Shown here: positions 26,805-54,243 of the stretch, in pieces
Numbering within the stretch: the first letter of the stretch is position 1
How the letters are laid out: the number at the start of each line of letters is the position of its first letter
Assembly: GCA_001599295.1 (NCBI GenBank)
Contig: BCGN01000001.1
Span: 1,488,001 to 1,552,000 of the forward strand
Direction: 5' to 3'
DNA: 64,000 bases
Source: Sporopachydermia quercuum
Taxonomy: Eukaryota
Program-made: the position numbers and the translations under genes
Notes under the pieces: generated by a model
The model's input: the letters and a program-made list of their open reading frames with translations, nothing else
Database searches by the model: none
What the model was told of the DNA's origin: nothing

Positions 26805-28301
26805 TTAATCAGAAGGACCAATCATCTTTTCAGGTCTAACCCATTCATTGAATTCTTCTTCATTGAGAACACCTAATTCAAGAGCGGAAGCCTTCAAAGT
26901 AATACCCTTCTTGTGAGCGTTCTTAGCAACCTTGGAAGCGGCATCGTAACCGATCTTGGGGTTAAGAGCAGTAACAAGCATAAGAGATTCATGCAATAAT
27001 TGAGAGATTCTCTTTTCGTTAGCCTTAATACCGTCAACGCAATGTACTCTGAAAGAATCACAACCATCAGCAATAAGTCTGATAGATGAAAGAACGTTAG
27101 AAGCAATAACTGGCTTGAACACGTTTAATTCAAATTGACCAGAAGCACCAGCGAAAGTGACAGCAGCGTGGTTACCAAAGACTTGAGTGCATAACATAGT
27201 GACAGCTTCGTTTTGAGTAGGATTGACCTTACCGGGCATAATGGAAGAACCAGGTTCGTTTTCGGGTAATGCAAGTTCACCGTAACCACATCTAGGGCCG
27301 GAACCAAGATATCTGATATCATTGGCGATCTTGTATAAAGAAACCGCAATAGTGTTTAAAGCACCAGAGGCTTCAACCATAGCATCGTGAGCAGCCAATG
27401 CTTCAAATTTGTTAGGAGCAGTATAAAATTGTTCACCAGTAAGTTCAGTTACGGTATCAGCAATCTTCTTGTCGAAACCCTTCTTGGTATTCAAACCAGT
27501 ACCGACAGCAGTACCACCTTGAGCAAGATTTCTCAAATGAGGTAAAGTNTTTTCGATTCTTTCAATTCCAAACTTCAATTGTTGGACATAGCCTGAGAAT
27601 TCTTGTCCTAAAGTCAAAGGAGTAGCATCTTGAAGATGGGTTCTACCAATCTTAATGATGTGTTCAAATTCCTTTGACTTAGCTTCCAAAGAGTCCTTGA
27701 GAGCAGTCAAAGAAGGAATCAATTTTTCAGTGATTTCTAAAACAGTAGCAATGTGCATAACAGTTGGGAAAGTATCATTGGAGGATTGAGACATGTTAAC
27801 GTGATCATTAGGATGAACAGGAGTCTTGGAACCTCTTTCACCACCTAAGATTTCAATTGCTCTATTCGAAATGACTTCATTGGCATTCATGTTAGATTGA
27901 GTTCCAGAACCAGTTTGGAAAACGACCAAAGGGAAATTTCCTTCTAATTTACCGTCAATGACTTCTTGAGCGGCTTGTTGAATTGCCTCACCAATCTTAG
28001 GATCTAATGAGTAAGTCATATTGACAGTTGCAGCAGCCTTCTTGAGAATACCGAAAGCTTTGATAATTGGTTCAGGCATTCTTTCTCTTGCACCACCAAT
28101 CTTGAAATTTTGGTATGATCTTTGAGTTTGAGCACCCCAGTACTTATCAGATGGGACCTCAATTGGTCCGAAAGCATCGGTTTCAGTTCGATGGCCTTCC
28201 ATATTGACAGCTGACAAAGTGAATGATCTAACAACTGTAGATGATAATCTGGTAGATGTACCAGCAACTCTGGAAACGGCTCTTAATCTGGCAGCTAACA
28301 T
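26805..28301 (-). CDS. FUM1: Class II fumarate hydratase with mitochondrial presequence (498 aa; second in-frame ATG at 28202)
   Basis: [13 protein letters not shown] signature, [10 protein letters not shown] and [11 protein letters not shown]. The Arg-rich, acid-free N-terminus runs from ATG 28301. Confidence 0.97.
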
Positions 28302-30764
28302 TTTGATCAAAATTAATTGTAGTTAGTATCTATATCTATGTGTATAGTAAATCTATGACGAAGATCTGGTCAATCTTTATCCGAATGATCCGATAATTCA
28401 GTTGAAAGCTTTCAAAAATGATGATAGGATAGCAATTGAAATATCTAATGATGTTTCAAAAAACTAATCATGAACAATAACAATTGTATCTCAGTTTAAC
28501 AATTGACCTTGCACAAGGGAGAAAAAATGAGTGACTGAGTAAGAGTTAAGAACATCTGGAAAAAAAAGGGGAATCAATACTGGATGGAAGGAGCTGATCT
28601 AATAGTAATTTGTAAGTTATTCGTCGGAACGCTAATGTTCCAAAATTTCATATCCCGACATACATAAGTCATGACATTGTCCAGAACTGAGAGTGATTTT
28701 ATCTTACTTGATTTTGNGTCCAGGTANTGANAAGTACCTAGAGATTCTCAACAAAGCGGTCTAGAGTACATGGTGGATTGTGAGAATTTTCTGCGATGTG
28801 ATGAGCANATATGTGATAGAGCGTTTAACATATTGGCATTCAACCGAACAGATAAGTGAAATCAGTCAAATCAAATCATCCACTTAATACTAGAATATCG
28901 CGTAGATTAAACATACCTATGAATAAAGCTGATTGGAAACAAATGTGTTTATTTGATGTTTTAGATTTGGATTATTCAAAATATTGTTATTTTTATTCAT
29001 ATTATTGAGTAGCGAATTAATGAATGAAAACAAACAATGGTTTATTGGTTGGTTGGTTTATAATAAATAGTTTTGAGATATCCATTTCAGTTACCAGCAA
29101 CAGGTGAGGGTTAATGATGACCCAAGCAGNTACTGAAGAAACTGAATTTAAGGTTAGTATGTAAAAAAAAAAATGGGAAACGCATACCTAAGTTACTTCC
29201 AGTATAATAATCACAGTATAAACATCTTGCTAAAATGTAACCTTATGCAGGTTTATGTATGTTGGGTGAGTTGTCTGAAGTATTCACTGTACCATTCATC
29301 TATTTATTATATAATGAATAGATGAATGAAGTAAATGGATGACTTATTATTATTAGTTCAAATGATTGATCGCAACAATTACTGCGACTGATTTATGGTG
29401 TCGCTGTAAATGAATCAATATAGAGTTTGGTAGTTAGTACACAATACAACGTCTCCTATTAATTTGGGTTGGTGCTTGATGATCATCATCATACTAGAAT
29501 AAAAAACAGATTACCGGTGAAGAAGTAAAATAGGTCTTAAATATGTTAGCACTAATATTGTCTAAGGATAGATGAGTTATAAGTCTTANTANATGATTCG
29601 AATTTTTGCAAATATGCATGGCTGGACAAGGAAGAGCTTGTCTAACAAAATCCTATGAGTTTGATAACCGATCATAGAAGGTTAATGAGTGTTTGGTTTA
29701 CTTAGAAGAAACATTGATTTCTCCATAGGATGGCCATTGCAGAAACAATAATATAATCCATGGTAGATACCAACTACCTTGTTAGTAACAATGAATAATC
29801 ATCAGCTTCTCTCGAAGTNCTCTTTCCCATTAAGGCTGGTGCCCGATGGTACTTTTAATAGGTAAGCATGGAGACAATGAGAACAGACAATGGAGTTGTT
29901 TTACAAATATCTGTTTCCCAATGATGAATGGGAAGCTTGTACAGATAAAACTGTTTATTAGCAGGTAACAATGTTTATTGACAGATACTTTCTCCTATTC
30001 ACTGATGANTTTAGTTGTTCCACCGAGACATATGAACCTTTCTTAGAAGACTCCACTTTATTCGGGAAATGAGTTCCCAGGGTGGTTCTAGAAGTATGTT
30101 CTTTGCTTTGAGGGTTTTTTAGAGTCAGACAATGTAGGGACGCTCTTTTTGCCTACTCCCGGACAAAATGTGGGACCTCAAGACATGTATGATACTGTCC
30201 CAGTGTTCAGTGCTGTGTTCTATCAGGTTCTGTGTTGCACCACAGCAATAATTAATAACCACCAACTGTCAAATGATCCATTCTCAAACTCACTTATTTC
30301 ATCTTTTCTTNGCTATTTCTATTTAGTACCTTACTAAGTTTTAGCTATAGTTGTTTGATTCATAACATAAATAAATCAGGTACGTATCTTTCATTATTCA
30401 GTCTGACAAATATTCAATACCCCACAGAGAACGCTCCAGGATCTTAACGACCATGACATGGAATTTTTCGGATTAGAATACCTTAAATTATCTGCTTGTC
30501 ATCCCAATTTTCCCCGTACAGTTAGGAGAATTAAAGCATGTGACCAAAGAATCTTCAGAACCATCCTCAGCGTTTCCTCTTTTTTACTATTTAACATCAA
30601 GTCTCGTCCCATTCTTCTGATATGTGAAACATTTTCAAAAGTTCTCTGTTTCGAGGATAACATTGTGTTTATTACATTATATCTAAATTTATATTTACTG
30701 TTANCAAATTATCTATACTCAGCTGTAATACTCCCACTTTGTGGAACATTTATACTATTCAAGA

Positions 30765-33700
30765 ATGCGCAACTCCTATCGGGGCAGACAAAAAAGCAGT
30801 GAAAGATCCTCTGATCTTGAACAAGATCGAAGGCGGTATTATGGGAAGGATAACTATAGAGACAGAGACAGAGATCGAGATCGAAATGATAAATGGAGAA
30901 GAGATAACCATGATGATAAATATATAAGCTTTCACCGAAGTCATGAGCCTGATTCAAAGTATGATCGTGCTCGTAAAACCAGAGATGATCAACCGAAAAG
31001 GTATGACAATTATAATGATTATGATGACCATTATTCTGAAAACAGATTAACTCCAATACCTCCTCCTGCTAAAAGAATCAAATCTGACATTAATTCTCCA
31101 AATCATCTAAATGATTCATCTAGCAACATCGATTCGATAGGTATCAATAACTTAAATCCTGCTATAGATTCTACTATCACTAGTATATCAACTGATAACA
31201 ACACAGCCGGTAGTGTATATGACAGTGCCAGGAAGCCGAATGAAAAGCAAGAAACAGTAGCAGAAAGTGAAAAAAAAAGGCTGCGGAGACTTAAACTCGA
31301 GCAGTGGAAAAAGAAGAAAGCTGAAGAGAAAAGTCGCAGCAGTGAAGTGAGTGGAACTCCATCGCCAACATCACTGCCACCCCCACCGTTAAACAAAGCA
31401 CATCAACAGTCACTTAGCCNGAAAGAAAATGTTATCACTAGTAAGAATAGCATTGATAACATCATCGACAATAGCATCAATAGCAAGGACACTTCAAATT
31501 CACGGAAAAAGAAGTCAGGTTTTGGTTTTTCTTTGAGNAAAGCAAATATTGACAAAAGCTCAAAAACATCGTTGAATGGCTCATCAAATATCAAACTTAA
31601 AAAATCATCGGTGTTTGATATACCAGCGCATAATAATGAGAATCAAACTACCAATAACAGCATATCAGAACTTTCAAATCGCTCAAAACCCTTAGAAAGA
31701 GATGCAAAAAATAATGGGAATGTTTTCAATCATGATCGTAACAAACCATCTAGTGATAATCCNGTCGACATTTCAACTGTTGATGCCACGGAAGACCCTG
31801 ATATTGATCCTTTAGATGCATTCATGTCGACAATAAAAAGCAGTATCGCCAGCAATAACTTTAAAGGAACGGAGGATCTATTAGAAGAAGAAGACGGCTC
31901 GGCCGAATATGAAGCCAAACCCGAGTATAACGAGAAGGATGATCCAGCAGCAATTCTTGCTCGGTTGGAACAGAAGAAAAGGAAGGACATACCAGTTGTT
32001 GATCATAGTAAAATACCTTATGAACCTTTCAGAAAAGACTTCTACGTTGAACCTGACGACCTGTTCTCTCTAACAGAGAAGGAAGTAGATATGCTAAGAT
32101 TACAACTGGATGGTATAAAGATTCGTGGTGTCAATTGTCCAAAACCTCTTCTCAAATGGTCTCAGCTGGGTTTGCCTGGTCAAACAATGTCTGTTTTGAG
32201 CAATACTTTACAATTCGACATTCCATCACCTATTCAAGCTCAAGCTATCCCAGCTATTATGTCGGGTAGGGATTTGATTGGTGTTGCTAAAACTGGTAGC
32301 GGTAAAACATTAGCTTTTCTTTTACCAATGTTCAGACAAATCAAGGACCAACGAGAATTAGCAAAACATGAGGGACCTATTGCTTTGATTCTTACGCCAA
32401 CAAGAGAACTAGCATCTCAAATTCATAGAGACTGTAAACCGTTTCTAAAAGCATTGAATTTAAGAGCAGTCTGTGCTTATGGAGGAGCCCCAATCAAAGA
32501 TCAAATTGCTGATTTGAAAAGAGGAGCTGAAATAGTTGTCTGCACTCCCGGTAGAATGATTGATTTACTTGCCGCTAACTCTGGAAGAGTAACGAATCTT
32601 ACTAGGGTTACTTACTTAGTACTAGATGAAGCAGACAGATTATTTGATATGGGATTTGAGCCTCAAGTGATGAAGATCATAAGAAATATTAGACCCGATA
32701 GACAAACTGTGCTTTTCTCTGCTACCTTCCCTGGTAAAATGGAAACGTTAGCAAAGAGAATTCTCACCAAACCAGTTGAAGTGATTGTGGGTGCTCGTGG
32801 TGTTGTAGCCAAAGAAATCAATCAGATAGTAGAAATAGTAGAAGAGAAGGACAAATTCAGAAAACTGCTAGAACTGCTTGGCAGAATTTATAACGAAAAT
32901 AGAAATGCCCGCGTTCTAATTTTTGTTGACCGTCAACAAGGAGCTGACAACCTGTTAAAAGAACTGATGGTCAATGGTTATATATGTTTATCCATTCATG
33001 GTGCGAAAGATCAGATGGATAGAGATGCAGCTATTGCTGATTTCAAGAGAGGCGACGTACCTATTCTAGTAGCTACCTCTGTTGCTGCTAGAGGTTTAGA
33101 TGTTAAACAGCTTACTTGGGTTATTAATTATGATGCTCCAAGCCATTTGGAAGATTATGTTCATAGAGCTGGTCGCACAGGTAGAGCAGGTAATTCAGGA
33201 ACTGCTGTAACATATATTAAGCCTGATCAAGAGAGAAGTGCGTTTGATATAGCAAAAGCTATGAGACTCAGTGGAGTTGAGATTCCTGAGCCTTTAAAGA
33301 GAATCGCTGATGAATTCCAGCAGAAAATCAAAGCTGGAAAGGAAAAGCTACACTCCGGTTTTGGTGGTAAAGGCCTTGATAAGTTGGATGAAGACAGGAA
33401 GCGGTCGCAACAGGAAGAACGATCTAAATACTCCGAAGATGGGTCTAAAGTTCAAACACAGAGCTTGGAGAAATCTAATGATGGCTCGAAATCTGATCCC
33501 CAAAACGTCGATTCAAGTAGTTCCAATGGCTCAGCTTCAAACTATGAAACTGTCCTAGAACTGGTTAGAAGTAAGATCAAAATGAGTTCAGATATCGTTG
33601 AAGGAGCTGCACCGGAAAACAGAGGACCTGATCAGAGCTATTACCACGCCAATTTTGAAATCAATGATCTACCCCAGAAAGCAAGATGGAGTGCTACAAG

Positions 33701-33953
33701 TAATGCTACTCATAAGAAGCTTGTGGAGGAAAGTGGTTCATCTATTACTATCAAAGGACANTATGTTCCCCCAGATAAGAAGAGTAGTCAATTGCCAGTA
33801 GATGAGAAAGAAAAACTGCATTTGCTTATTGAAGGGCCTACTAAATTGGCTGTTTCAATGGCTGTTAATCAATTACGTGATATTGTTGTCGAAAGTCTTA
33901 TTCAAAGTGCTGTTAGTGAAGCAAGAGCTCCTCAAGGTAGATATACCATTTAA
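30765..33953 (+). CDS. PRP5: DEAD-box splicing helicase Prp5/DDX46 (~1062 aa)
   Basis: RD/RS-rich N-terminus, DPLDAFM motif, [25 protein letters not shown] and a C-terminal KH-like [11 protein letters not shown]. The first ATG is at 30765. Confidence 0.95.
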
Positions 33954-38300: not shown

Positions 38301-38886
38301 CACTTGATGTATTATCAGTAGCAAATGTACTTGAAGCTGGTGTAGGAGGTACAGAGGCTCTGTTAATAGGCACTAATATAGCTGAATCACTCATTATAGC
38401 TTTCTTAGTCGAATAGCCTGCAGTCATATTGGAATTCATAGGGTTTTCGTTGTTTATTAGTTCTCCTGTAATATTATGTTCATCATTATTAATAGATTGG
38501 GTTCCTGATGGTATTTCATCAATAGTTCTAGTAGCAACATTGATTGTTGGCACAGCAGCGACAGTTTCTGTTTCCACAGTCATATTAACTGCCTTTTTCC
38601 CTCCTTTCAATTTAGACATGCTTGTTATTTTACCAAAATCCGGCGATGACGCCACAGATGTTTTCCTTAAAATAGGTGCTTCTATCGTTGTCCCGGAACT
38701 TTGTATAGTATGATTTGAGGATACAGATTTCTTCTTTGTATGCTGATGAACGGTAGTTTGATCTGTCGGTGAGTTTTCAACNGATACTTTATTATTGGTA
38801 ACATTGTTATTTATACCGTTTAACGAATTGGGGTTCCAACTTGTTGGCCCTTTATTCTGGCTACCATCGGTATTAGTTACGACCAT
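35347..38886 (-). CDS. VAC7: Vacuolar segregation protein Vac7 (Fab1 regulator; 1179 aa)
   Basis: MTVETETV, FAAKVASAV.EAESEDSDETFVYES, YSPHNF, a single TM segment, then VLVSEDELIFDL..GFNP and F.LVVRGILKY.LP luminal domain. Confidence 0.9.
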   Translation of the reverse strand: MVVTNTDGSQNKGPTSWNPNSLNGINNNVTNNKVXVENSPTDQTTVHQHTKKKSVSSNHTIQSSGTTIEAPILRKTSVASSPDFGKITSMSKLKGGKKAVNMTVETETVAAVPTINVATRTIDEIPSGTQSINNDEHNITGELINNENPMNSNMTAGYSTKKAIMSDSAILVPINRASVPPTPASSTFATDNTSSDYQTSAIGTGGATHTNEEGTFIGATMSAAGSIVDPEDHHQIDSTINGMDVETLSGGQGGPGVLSENGLEHPDELNDHFEEESVHHKSIGVAPEQKTSTAASKSATGGNSLADGPPNNGNSRKNKNKNKKSYKKKMNGSSLNLGTASTKVEYFAAKVASAVGEAESEDSDETFVYESKRQEPAAVAGSSTTGAGTAVAVSGAVSASGAGAGTGSSGGTTATTTTGLPVNAAASTNGIPDVLPSAGRLMYKSSGTGSQLRLDGLVNSGIPDANSHMNYSTANTXSRPPRQNYPSIVPESGSRVFSTNEAYYSQSETEINNNTGPPGSVRKPSTFGTSNYCKEDGYDSEXNRRPQLKKYHRASSIISTGSTAVNENPTDYEDRTITKPMGDQPSNSSGSSSSKSKRKTRQLLKQAETEADKYNDEDDTIIQNGDQRDFIRSALLSKRYDEYENTAYDSEGYRSQHTQSYNHSRNNPQLHQNHRHNQKYKGNNSSTKSNHPAISAGGSLKKWPRIQGNAXQNMSRTSTIGSVSNQGLVENPTDQANGTVTDDNTSRRDLRTTASRLFDPSGARLPRRFISGGDDDEGIDVQEYYNEYTPLRRGIRSGGRFRVDSSAMPGFGFARHSSHGSTGSNIQYPIVYSPHNFSQTYGSTGDARYMFGMDPQGTFERFAMPRKRREANAYLKFSIWLFIMTISVLILGFFMGCFLATRKELQSVRIVSLTGVLVSEDELIFDLVTEGFNPGIVGIAIEEVELDIFARTAYYQAPDGSGNDGDDDDKNGDDNNNNNNNNDTHDNKGDDSSSLRVSSKESGGDDRGGFGGNETALVKLGTIFHLELPLQFDGGLFNRRLLKSVGEVHLMHPCSNTTENDETSSQGQTLLSRILSPIIRSQHDSAITLANNNWDQTADWNTIQLHPFDLVVRGILKYKLPFGSDYHEVSVSKVAYIDPRDDDDDDDDDDKIHKKYDCDLEFGVCHHNESNTTSLRAVN
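35437..35466. repeat. (ATC)10 microsatellite encoding poly-Asp in the Vac7 C-terminus
   Basis: Read directly; it matches the D10 run in the translation. Confidence 0.9.
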
Positions 38887-53000: not shown

Positions 53001-54243
53001 ATGATGATATTGACTCAATATTTCTCAGATATCGTATACTCGATAGCGTCATGTTTATCCTGTAACAGATCACCAGTGTTGAAGATAAATCGAGGAACAT
53101 TCAAGATTGTCAAGCTTTTAGGAGAGGTATGAATAGATAAATTCAAAATTATGAGAAAACAAGTAGTGAAAATCTACTGAACACTATTTTTCTCTATGGA
53201 TATAAGCTGCTGACTTTACTTTACTAACGTCTCTTATGCAGGGAGGTTTCTCTTATGTTTACATGGTTGAATCTCAAAATGGCCATATGTATGCATTGAA
53301 AAAGATTCGATGTTCGTTCGGACAAGAAAGTGTGCGGTCAGCTATGCAAGAAATTGAATGCTATAAACTATTCAATTCTCCTTATATTATCAGAGCAATC
53401 GACTCAAGTATAGTGCAAGAAGCAGATGGAACTAAGACGGTTTATATTGTTCTACCTTATTATGAAAGAGGGAATCTTCAAGATTTAATCAATGCTAATA
53501 TTATGAACAATTCAAACTTTGATGAAGACTTGATACTGCATTATTTCATTGGAATATGTAAAGGTCTCCAAGCGATGCATAACTACCATATGGAACCTAG
53601 TGTGCGTTTAAACAGACTTTCATCTAATTTTGATGGAGCCAACAGNAGAGGTAATGAAGAACATGATGTTTTGTTGAATGATGGAGATAGTGCTGCAGGT
53701 AGTACAGAAGGCGATGATTTTGTAATAAATATTGATTCAGAAGAAGGTACAGAAATGGGAGAAAATATAGCTTATGCGCATAGAGATATTAAACCCGCTA
53801 ATATAATGATATCTGGTGATGATACACCAATCTTGATGGACCTAGGATCCTGTAATAGAGCCAGAAAAAGGATCAAAACTAGACAACAAGCCCTTGAACT
53901 ACAAGATTTAGCAGCAGAACACTGTACACTACCTTATAGAGCTCCAGAGTTATTTGATGTGAAAACAGGAATGGCGGTTGATGAAAGAGTTGATATTTGG
54001 AGTTTAGGTTGCACACTGTTTACATTAATGTATAATTCATCTCCTTTTGAACTAATGGCTGCAGAAAGTGGAGCTAGTCTTAGTCTAGCAATTGTGGGTG
54101 GTCAGTATAAATTTCCTAATGCTCCACATTATTCGGATGAGCTGAAAGACTTGGTACGATTTTGTCTTGTCGTTGATCCTTCGGAAAGACCTTTCATTAC
54201 TCAAGTAATGTCAAAAGCATTAGATCTTCAAGATAATCTATAG
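53001..54243 (+). CDS. ENV7: NAK-family Ser/Thr kinase Env7/STK16, 2 exons (53001-53126, 53242-54243; 375 aa)
   Basis: Exon 1 reads MMILTQYFSDIVYSIASCLSCNRSPVLKINRGTFKIVKLLGE. Intron GTATGA(53127)..TACTAAC..CAG(53241). Exon 2 has GGFSYVY, ALKKIRC, HRDIKPAN, DLGS and CTLPYRAPELF. Confidence 0.92.

What the first reader, a model, noticed from the sequence alone, without database searches (positions are those of the whole stretch)
28202..28916. FUM1: a branch point and 3' splice site straddle the mitochondrial ATG, suggesting a splicing switch between mitochondrial and cytosolic fumarase
Seen: on the minus strand a perfect TACTAAC (28328-28322) lies about 20 nt upstream of the FUM1 ATG (28301). 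The first AG after it is the TAG at 28297-28295, inside codons 2-3 (ATG TTA G|CT). Perfect GTATGT donors lie upstream at 28663 and 28916 (AG|GTATGT), with GTAAGA at 28707. Splicing would delete the first ATG. The next ATG on the mRNA in any frame is Met34 (28202, context AATATGG), right after the Arg-rich presequence and just before the conserved RTETDAFG core. Established: fumarase is both mitochondrial and cytosolic in many eukaryotes, and S. cerevisiae achieves this from one translation product, not by splicing. Inference: this yeast may use an upstream promoter plus an ATG-removing intron to make a ~465-aa cytosolic form. Caveat: the 28-nt branch-to-AG spacing is at the long end of the introns in this window.
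Basis: partly seen in the sequence, partly recalled or inferred. Interest (0 to 1): 0.72.

Follow-up and report, generated by a model that had tools for sequence, protein, structure and literature searches.

The report
Possible start-removing intron at yeast fumarase
A budding yeast's only fumarase gene has intron-like signals on both sides of its first start codon, so splicing could in principle turn the mitochondrial enzyme into a cytosolic one, but the signals are atypical for this genome and an ordinary second start codon explains the gene at least as well.

Summary
All motifs are at the stated coordinates. FUM1 is the only fumarase found in the genome and has a presequence plus an in-frame Met34 in good context. 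For splicing: a branch point straddling a start ATG arises by chance in about 0.14% of genes, FUM1 has four sense-strand TACTAAC in 1.5 kb upstream (0 of 840 background tiles do), and a perfect AG|GTATGT donor lies 588 nt up. Against: the 27-nt branch-to-AG tail lies outside the 5-23 nt seen in 25 of 27 coding-confirmed introns. Straddling patterns are not enriched genome-wide. No RNA or sister-species DNA could be examined. Most likely (0.45): two start codons used through alternative transcription starts or leaky scanning. Functional splice switch 0.22; spliced but non-productive upstream RNA 0.18. I found no fumarase splicing switch in print or in earlier scan notes. Closest precedents are the PRP5 start-removing intron and APE2.

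The parts
26805..28301 (-). FUM1, class II fumarase ORF, 498 aa; only fumarase found in the genome
   Evidence: best hits 79-84% identical, Pfam PF00206 + PF10415
28203..28301 (-). 33-codon presequence-like leader (5 Arg, 0 Asp/Glu, 10 Ser/Thr); R25-S26-F27...M34 fits the R-10 MPP/Oct1 motif (motif recalled)
28299..28301 (-). ATG1 (mitochondrial start); context at the 49th percentile of 105 gene starts
28200..28202 (-). Met34, in-frame second ATG; context at the 55th percentile; no other ATG between ATG1 and it
28322..28328 (-). TACTAAC, candidate branch point, 20 nt before ATG1
28295..28297 (-). TAG, first AG after the branch point (27 nt after the heptamer), inside codons 2-3
   Evidence: atypically far
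28911..28916 (-). AG|GTATGT, best candidate donor; would give a 622-nt intron 28916-28295
28658..28663 (-). AT|GTATGT donor; only 8 ATG-free nt upstream, would create a 6-codon out-of-frame uORF across the junction
28702..28707 (-). GTAAGA, weak donor; 63 ATG-free nt upstream
28917..29000 (-). 27-codon uORF whose TAG stop forms the last three bases before donor 28916; weak start context (16th percentile)
29057..29062 (-). TATAAA, possible TATA element of an upstream promoter (not a strict TATAWAW)
   Evidence: function inferred
29142..29187 (-). AG|GTATGC...TACTAAC(29159)...CAG, 46-nt intron-like unit; donor-branch distance of 28 nt is at chance level for this genome
29404..29494 (-). TA|GTATGA...TACTAAC(29439)...CAG, 91-nt intron-like unit with a 29-nt tail
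29781..29787 (-). fourth TACTAAC, no canonical donor within 110 nt (nearest AA|GTGAGT 506 nt up)
29293..29328 (.). 36-nt near-perfect palindrome/hairpin holding TATATAA
   Evidence: (z -4.75)
30765..33953 (+). divergent neighbour, DEAD-box helicase that I read as PRP5 (name from my reading of the translation, not from a search)

Best explanation
FUM1 is an ordinary single-copy, two-start fumarase gene. A proximal promoter gives mRNA starting in the 169-nt ATG-free stretch before ATG1, making the mitochondrial precursor. The cytosolic form is made from Met34, either from transcripts that start at or after ATG1 or by leaky scanning, as in human and rat fumarase. The TACTAAC before ATG1 is a chance A/C-rich leader word or is used too rarely to matter. 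Shown: two in-frame ATGs in good context, no ATG between them, a presequence, one gene copy. Inferred: transcription starts, use of Met34, and the absence of productive splicing.
For: Single fumarase gene. ATG1 and Met34 contexts at the 49th and 55th percentile; no ATG between them. A Met within 6 aa of the core in 45 of 101 presequence-bearing homologues, so the second start long predates any intron here. Human fumarase uses alternative transcription initiation and rat alternative translation initiation (PMC6068284 passages); Cryptococcus MAE102 and IDP1 use alternative starts (bioRxiv 10.1101/2023.07.18.549460 passages). The 27-nt tail lies outside 4-18 nt (22 of 22 introns) and outside 5-23 nt (25 of 27 coding-confirmed introns; the other two are 36 and 38). 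No genome-wide excess of straddling patterns (72 vs 71; 92 vs 107). No second gene with straddle plus presequence among 39 of 72 hits examined or 15 tRNA-synthetase genes.
Against: TACTAAC within 40 nt of a start ATG is usually a real branch point here (7 in 158 genes vs 0.64 per control heptamer). A perfect AG|GTATGT within 111-700 nt occurs at only 1.9% of control sites with a 22-40 nt tail. Four sense-strand TACTAAC in 1.5 kb is the most of 178 genes and is seen in 0 of 840 tiles. ATG1 is not in a weak context, which argues against leaky scanning in particular. No strict TATAWAW lies near ATG1.
Confidence: 0.45

Rival explanations
1. Functional splice switch (first reader, narrowed). An upstream promoter (TATAAA 29062) starts transcripts within 28999-28917. 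The 622-nt intron 28916-28295 is removed with ATG1 inside it, and ribosomes start at Met34 92 nt after the junction, making a 465-aa cytosolic fumarase. A second promoter inside the intron makes the mitochondrial form. The switch is then promoter choice, with splicing as the obligatory clean-up of 12 intronic ATGs.
For: Complete signal set in the right order. Straddle chance 0.14% per gene. AG|GTATGT 200-700 nt before TACTAAC is in excess in a 764-kb sample: 8 including FUM1 vs 3.0 expected; 7 vs 3.0 gives P=0.034. A-rich stretch at 29000-28950. Yarrowia leader introns are long, median 325 nt, and some run into the ORF (PMC13309789 passages). APE2 and GCR1 use starts inside an intron (PMC7491326 section 14). 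Another intron-like unit in this window (AG|GTATGC 39770, branch 39698) has the same 27-nt tail, though it is not confirmed by a reading frame.
Against: Outlier tail length. Narrow ATG-free start window; if starts lie ~30 nt after the TATA, as in Yarrowia (PMC7849388 passages), the 27-codon uORF at 29000 is included. No other gene with this layout found. Picked after the fact from many windows.
Confidence: 0.22
2. A long upstream minus-strand RNA (LUTI-like, or divergent from the PRP5 promoter) is spliced at one or more of the intron-like units, sometimes to 28295. It carries several uORFs and makes little or no fumarase; it is regulatory (promoter interference, NMD substrate) or protointron noise.
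For: Alternating donor-branch-AG chain at 29494/29439/29404, 29187/29159/29142 and 28916/28328/28295. Motif density in 0 of 840 tiles. No convincing spliced ORF. uATGs at 29299, 29295, 29225, 29085 and 29000. In S. cerevisiae 16% of protointrons remove the AUG of 27 genes (PMC6726248 passages).
Against: Each upstream unit has an atypical feature: no near donor; a 29-nt tail; a 28-nt donor-branch distance seen at only 2 sites genome-wide against 5 control matches. No Rfam family at E below 1, so no sign of a snoRNA host.
Confidence: 0.18
3. As in S. cerevisiae, one precursor is made from ATG1, processed in mitochondria and partly returns to the cytosol. Met34 is not used as a start and the splice-like words are coincidental.
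For: Established for S. cerevisiae (PMC11653698 and PMC6068284 passages). 56 of 101 presequence-bearing homologues, including Yarrowia, Geotrichum and Komagataella, lack a Met near the core. ATG1 context is not leaky.
Against: Met34 has kept a good start context. It leaves the upstream motif cluster unexplained.
Confidence: 0.15

Closest known systems
PRP5 start-codon-removing intron (S. cerevisiae, other Saccharomycotina, A. fumigatus; PMC7491326 passages, PMC6726248 passages)
   Same: An inefficient intron spans the AUG, so splicing deletes the normal start.
   Different: In PRP5 the spliced RNA is non-productive and lowers expression; here a downstream in-frame Met would give a shorter active isoform.
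APE2 and GCR1 of Saccharomycetaceae (PMC7491326 section 14)
   Same: Two starts, one inside an intron, probably tied to a transcription start within the intron; APE2 gives predicted mitochondrial and cytoplasmic forms.
   Different: Polarity is reversed: in APE2 the spliced form from exon 1 is mitochondrial and the intronic AUG gives the cytoplasmic form. Here the intronic ATG would be mitochondrial and exon 1 non-coding.
Human and rat fumarase dual targeting (PMC6068284 passages)
   Same: One gene, presequence followed by a second in-frame start giving the cytosolic form.
   Different: Done by alternative transcription initiation (human) or translation initiation (rat), with no splicing. This is the default explanation here.
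S. cerevisiae Fum1 reverse translocation (PMC11653698, PMC6068284 passages)
   Same: Same enzyme, single gene, both compartments.
   Different: One translation product; needs neither a second start nor an intron.
Human cMECR (PMC9815647 passages)
   Same: Splicing yields a transcript that does not translate the targeting sequence and starts at a downstream Met, giving a cytosolic form despite uORFs.
   Different: Uses an alternative 3' splice site that adds stop-containing leader; the first AUG is kept, not excised.
Yeast splicing-controlled localisation: PTC7 (PMC11653698 passage), Y. lipolytica MDH (PMC7491326 passage; PMC3372373 seen as search listing only)
   Same: Splice choice sets the compartment.
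   Different: Intron retention or alternative 3' sites within coding sequence, not removal of the start codon.

Membership tests
Class II fumarase (FUM1) | Lyase_1 + FumaraseC_C domains, high identity to named fumarases | tested here: met
   best hits 79-84% identical, PF00206 and PF10415 on the hits
Spliceosomal intron of this genome | Consensus donor, TACTAAC branch point, YAG acceptor in order | tested here: met
   consensus supported (130 vs 24 control)
Spliceosomal intron of this genome | Branch-to-AG tail within the usual range | tested here: not met
   27 nt vs 4-18 (22 of 22) and 5-23 (25 of 27)
Spliceosomal intron of this genome | Donor-to-branch distance within the used range | tested here: inconclusive
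   588 nt; the clear excess is at 40-150 nt, with a modest excess of AG|GTATGT at 200-700 nt (8 vs 3.0)
Spliceosomal intron of this genome | Junction seen in RNA | not testable with these tools
   no reads could be laid on the locus
Start-removing intron (PRP5 type) | Intron spans the annotated AUG | tested here: met
   ATG1 28301-28299 lies between branch point 28322 and AG 28295, if spliced
Start-removing intron (PRP5 type) | Conserved in related species | not testable with these tools
   no close relative among 51 tree rows; the metagenome scan gave no close yeast among the 7 of 80 loci read
Two-start dual-targeted protein | Presequence between two in-frame AUGs, none out of frame between them | tested here: met
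Two-start dual-targeted protein (leaky-scanning type, PMC7049704) | First AUG weak, second strong | tested here: not met
   49th vs 55th percentile; rough matrix from 105 predicted starts
Two-start dual-targeted protein | Initiation at the second AUG shown | not testable with these tools
   needs ribosome profiling or N-terminal proteomics
snoRNA host transcript | Intron holds a C/D or H/ACA RNA | tested here: not met
   no Rfam match at E below 1 in 28200-30900; 3' part of the intron folds no better than shuffles (z 0.47)

The most novel reading that the evidence does not exclude
This yeast lineage has evolved a further way to put fumarase in two compartments: an upstream promoter whose transcript splices out a 622-nt intron containing the mitochondrial start codon and its promoter, leaving Met34 as first ATG. 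It may be the last step of a multi-intron non-coding leader, i.e. a PRP5-type start-removing intron turned to productive use.
Probability: 0.22. Interest if true: 0.65.

Novelty: new variant of a known kind. Interest (0 to 1): 0.4.

Why it matters
Fumarase is the textbook case of one enzyme reaching two compartments by different routes in different organisms: two genes, two transcription starts, two translation starts, or reverse translocation (PMC11653698, PMC6068284). A splice-based route would add a fifth, and would show that start-removing introns, so far described in the papers I read as ways to lower expression, can make a useful isoform. If false, the gene is an ordinary two-start fumarase. 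One RT-PCR decides it.

Tried and rejected
Sequencing runs: no RNA holder listed; this is no evidence either way, and no reads could be laid. Sister-species DNA: the one metagenome scan kept 80 loci at 56-76% identity. I read 7: four looked like non-yeast fungi, two bacterial, and one (L009) a distant yeast with no Met near the core and no TACTAAC in the 400 nt shown; too distant to test conservation. My first label 'Dipodascomycetes' from BLAST rank was dropped: the tree leaves the window on its own 0.23 branch with weak placement. Hidden small protein gene between FUM1 and its neighbour: no convincing spliced ORF on either strand. Repeat or mobile element: no second copy found in the genome. 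Known RNA family: none at E below 1. Old tandem duplication as the source of repeated splice words: score 102 vs 90 +/- 11, 29 of 200 shuffles as high. Long-range pairing in the 3' 411 nt of the intron: z 0.47; no inverted repeat joins donor and branch regions. General mechanism in other dual-targeted genes: none among 15 tRNA-synthetase genes (16 of 18 loci read), among 39 of 72 pattern hits, or by eye among 92 rows. That pattern's last letter excluded FUM1 itself, and eight borderline rows could not be checked in their genomic context. A genome-wide count of long donor-branch pairs could not be run, so the long-intron estimate rests on the 764-kb sample. Yarrowia intron supplement: no hit for fumarate, fumarase, FUM1 or a recalled gene id, which is uninformative if the tables use other ids. 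Literature searches found no fumarase splicing switch (listings only, except the papers cited).

Full report
Observation. The ORF is a 498-aa class II fumarase and the only one found in the 16.4-Mb genome; the second hit is 25% identical. The first 33 residues look like a presequence (5 Arg, no acidic residue). After the proposed junction the first ATG in any frame is Met34, 92 nt on. The organism is a budding yeast with no close relative among the database hits (best 84%; isolated 0.23 branch, weak placement).

How this genome's introns look. GTATGT-N30-60-TACTAAC-YAG occurs 130 times against 24 for the reversed control, so the consensus is right. The branch-to-AG tail was 4-18 nt in 22 of 22 distinct introns from the 30 loci returned. 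In a 764-kb sample (70 stretches of 10 kb plus the window), 48 sites had a donor 25-110 nt upstream. Of these, 27 were followed by at least 300 nt of open frame; their tails were 5-23 nt in 25 cases and 36 and 38 in the other two. About a tenth of control sites have such a donor by chance, so the long-tailed cases may be chance or distant-branch introns. FUM1's 27 nt is therefore an outlier, more so than 'the long end'. Long introns probably exist: AG|GTATGT lies 200-700 nt before TACTAAC 8 times (FUM1 included) against 3.0 expected; without FUM1, P=0.034.

Is the straddle more than chance? Among 158 predicted gene starts, 14 control heptamers gave the same geometry 3 times (0.14% per gene), and TACTAAC gave it 3 times: FUM1, one gene where an AAG precedes the ATG, and one that reads as an ordinary coding intron. 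TACTAAC near a start is usually real (7 vs 0.64 per control). Genome-wide the straddling patterns are not enriched (72 vs 71; 92 vs 107). I found no second gene with a straddled ATG plus presequence among 39 of the 72 hits, among 15 tRNA-synthetase genes, or by eye in the rows. So this is not a general device of the genome; if real it is specific to FUM1. Multiplying the control rates (0.14% straddle, 1.9% perfect donor, or 14% any GTATGT) over a guessed 100-200 two-start genes gives roughly 0.3-4% per genome by chance. That is small, but the case was picked after the fact from a scan of many genomes. This estimate is my inference.

First, the upstream exon is not free of ATGs. The ATG-free window above each donor is 83 nt (28916), 63 nt (28707) and 8 nt (28663), and donor 28663 would create a 6-codon out-of-frame uORF across the junction. 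Only 28916 is a workable donor, and a 27-codon uORF from 29000 ends on the TAG just before it. A TATAAA lies at 29062. With starts ~30 nt downstream, as in Yarrowia, the uORF is included; with scanning (50-120 nt) most starts would miss it (PMC7849388 passages). Which mode this lineage uses is unknown. The unspliced long RNA holds 12 ATGs before ATG1, so the mitochondrial form needs its own promoter inside the intron: the switch would be promoter choice rather than retention versus splicing. Second, FUM1 has four sense-strand TACTAAC within 1.5 kb, the most of 178 genes and seen in 0 of 840 background tiles, arranged as donor-branch-AG units at 29494-29404, 29187-29142 and 28916-28295. This hints at a spliced upstream RNA, which the hypothesis needs. 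But every unit is atypical: the 46-nt one has a donor-branch distance found at only 2 sites genome-wide against 5 control matches. The exons are non-coding, carry five uATGs and match no Rfam family.

Met34. A Met within 6 residues of the core is present in 45 of 101 presequence-bearing homologues (119 of 120 proteins had the anchor motif; 18 had no presequence). It is present in Trichomonascus, Sugiyamaella, Blastobotrys and Nadsonia, and absent in Yarrowia, Geotrichum and Komagataella. These are not independent counts. It is an old, often lost second start and cannot tell splicing from other mechanisms. Both ATGs have middling-good context (49th and 55th percentile), which speaks against simple leaky scanning and for alternative transcription starts if Met34 is used.

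Mechanisms weighed. (A) Two starts without splicing, 0.45. (B) Productive start-removing intron, 0.22. (C) Spliced but non-productive upstream RNA, 0.18. (D) Single product with reverse translocation, 0.15. Shown: sequence anatomy and genome statistics. Inferred: all transcription starts, splicing and localisation. The odds are my judgement.

Comparison with what is known. Fumarase reaches two compartments through two genes (Arabidopsis), two translation starts (rat), several mRNAs (human) or one product (S. cerevisiae) (PMC11653698 passages; PMC6068284 passages). Start-removing introns are known: PRP5, conserved to A. fumigatus and read as negative feedback (PMC7491326 passages), and 16% of S. 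cerevisiae protointrons (PMC6726248 passages). APE2 and GCR1 use AUGs inside introns, APE2 for mitochondrial versus cytoplasmic forms with the reverse polarity (PMC7491326 section 14). Human cMECR is a splice-made cytosolic form (PMC9815647 passages). Cryptococcus uses leaky AUGs and alternative starts (PMC7049704 passages; bioRxiv 10.1101/2023.07.18.549460 passages). Yarrowia leader introns are long and some extend into the ORF (PMC13309789 passages; PMC2911113 passages). Seven searches listed no report of fumarase localisation by splicing; the library lacks most subscription papers. Earlier scan notes hold no such case either.

Verdict. It would be a new variant of known start-removing and intron-internal-start arrangements. 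Interest 0.4; cheap to test.

Noticed in passing
window 29787-29142 (-): Three further TACTAAC with partial donor and acceptor sets upstream of FUM1; possible spliced non-coding RNA in the FUM1-PRP5 divergent interval.
   Followed up: partly
window 29293-29328: 36-nt near-perfect palindrome folding far better than shuffles (z -4.75) and holding TATATAA; single copy in the genome search.
   Followed up: partly
window 30380-30830 (+): The PRP5-like neighbour has a good AG|GTACGT donor 385 nt before its ATG but no canonical branch point; PRP5 orthologues often carry a start-removing intron.
   Followed up: partly
window 39770-39665 (-): AG|GTATGC...TACTAAC...TAG unit with a 27-nt tail in non-coding DNA about 800 nt before the 1179-aa ORF at 38886; possible long-leader intron.
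   Followed up: partly
window 53222-53241 (+): An ordinary-looking coding intron whose last bases read ATG CAG in frame with the downstream kinase-like exon, a possible intron-internal start.
   Followed up: no
L222 / L233 (G000:C9, near 232500-235500, -): A tRNA-synthetase gene that I read as CysRS has a 26-codon open, presequence-like extension without ATG before its Met, and a TACTAAC followed by AAG inside that extension; nearest donor CA|GTAAGT 681 nt upstream.
   Followed up: partly
L211, L212 (G000:C8, C4): Genes that I read as GlyRS and ValRS have open Arg/Ser-rich extensions without ATG upstream of the first Met, as expected for near-cognate mitochondrial starts.
   Followed up: no
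window 28936-28930, 28836, 29048 (-): Three CCAAT words, one CCAATCA 20 nt above donor 28916; could be HAP-complex sites (consensus recalled); count not tested against chance.
   Followed up: no
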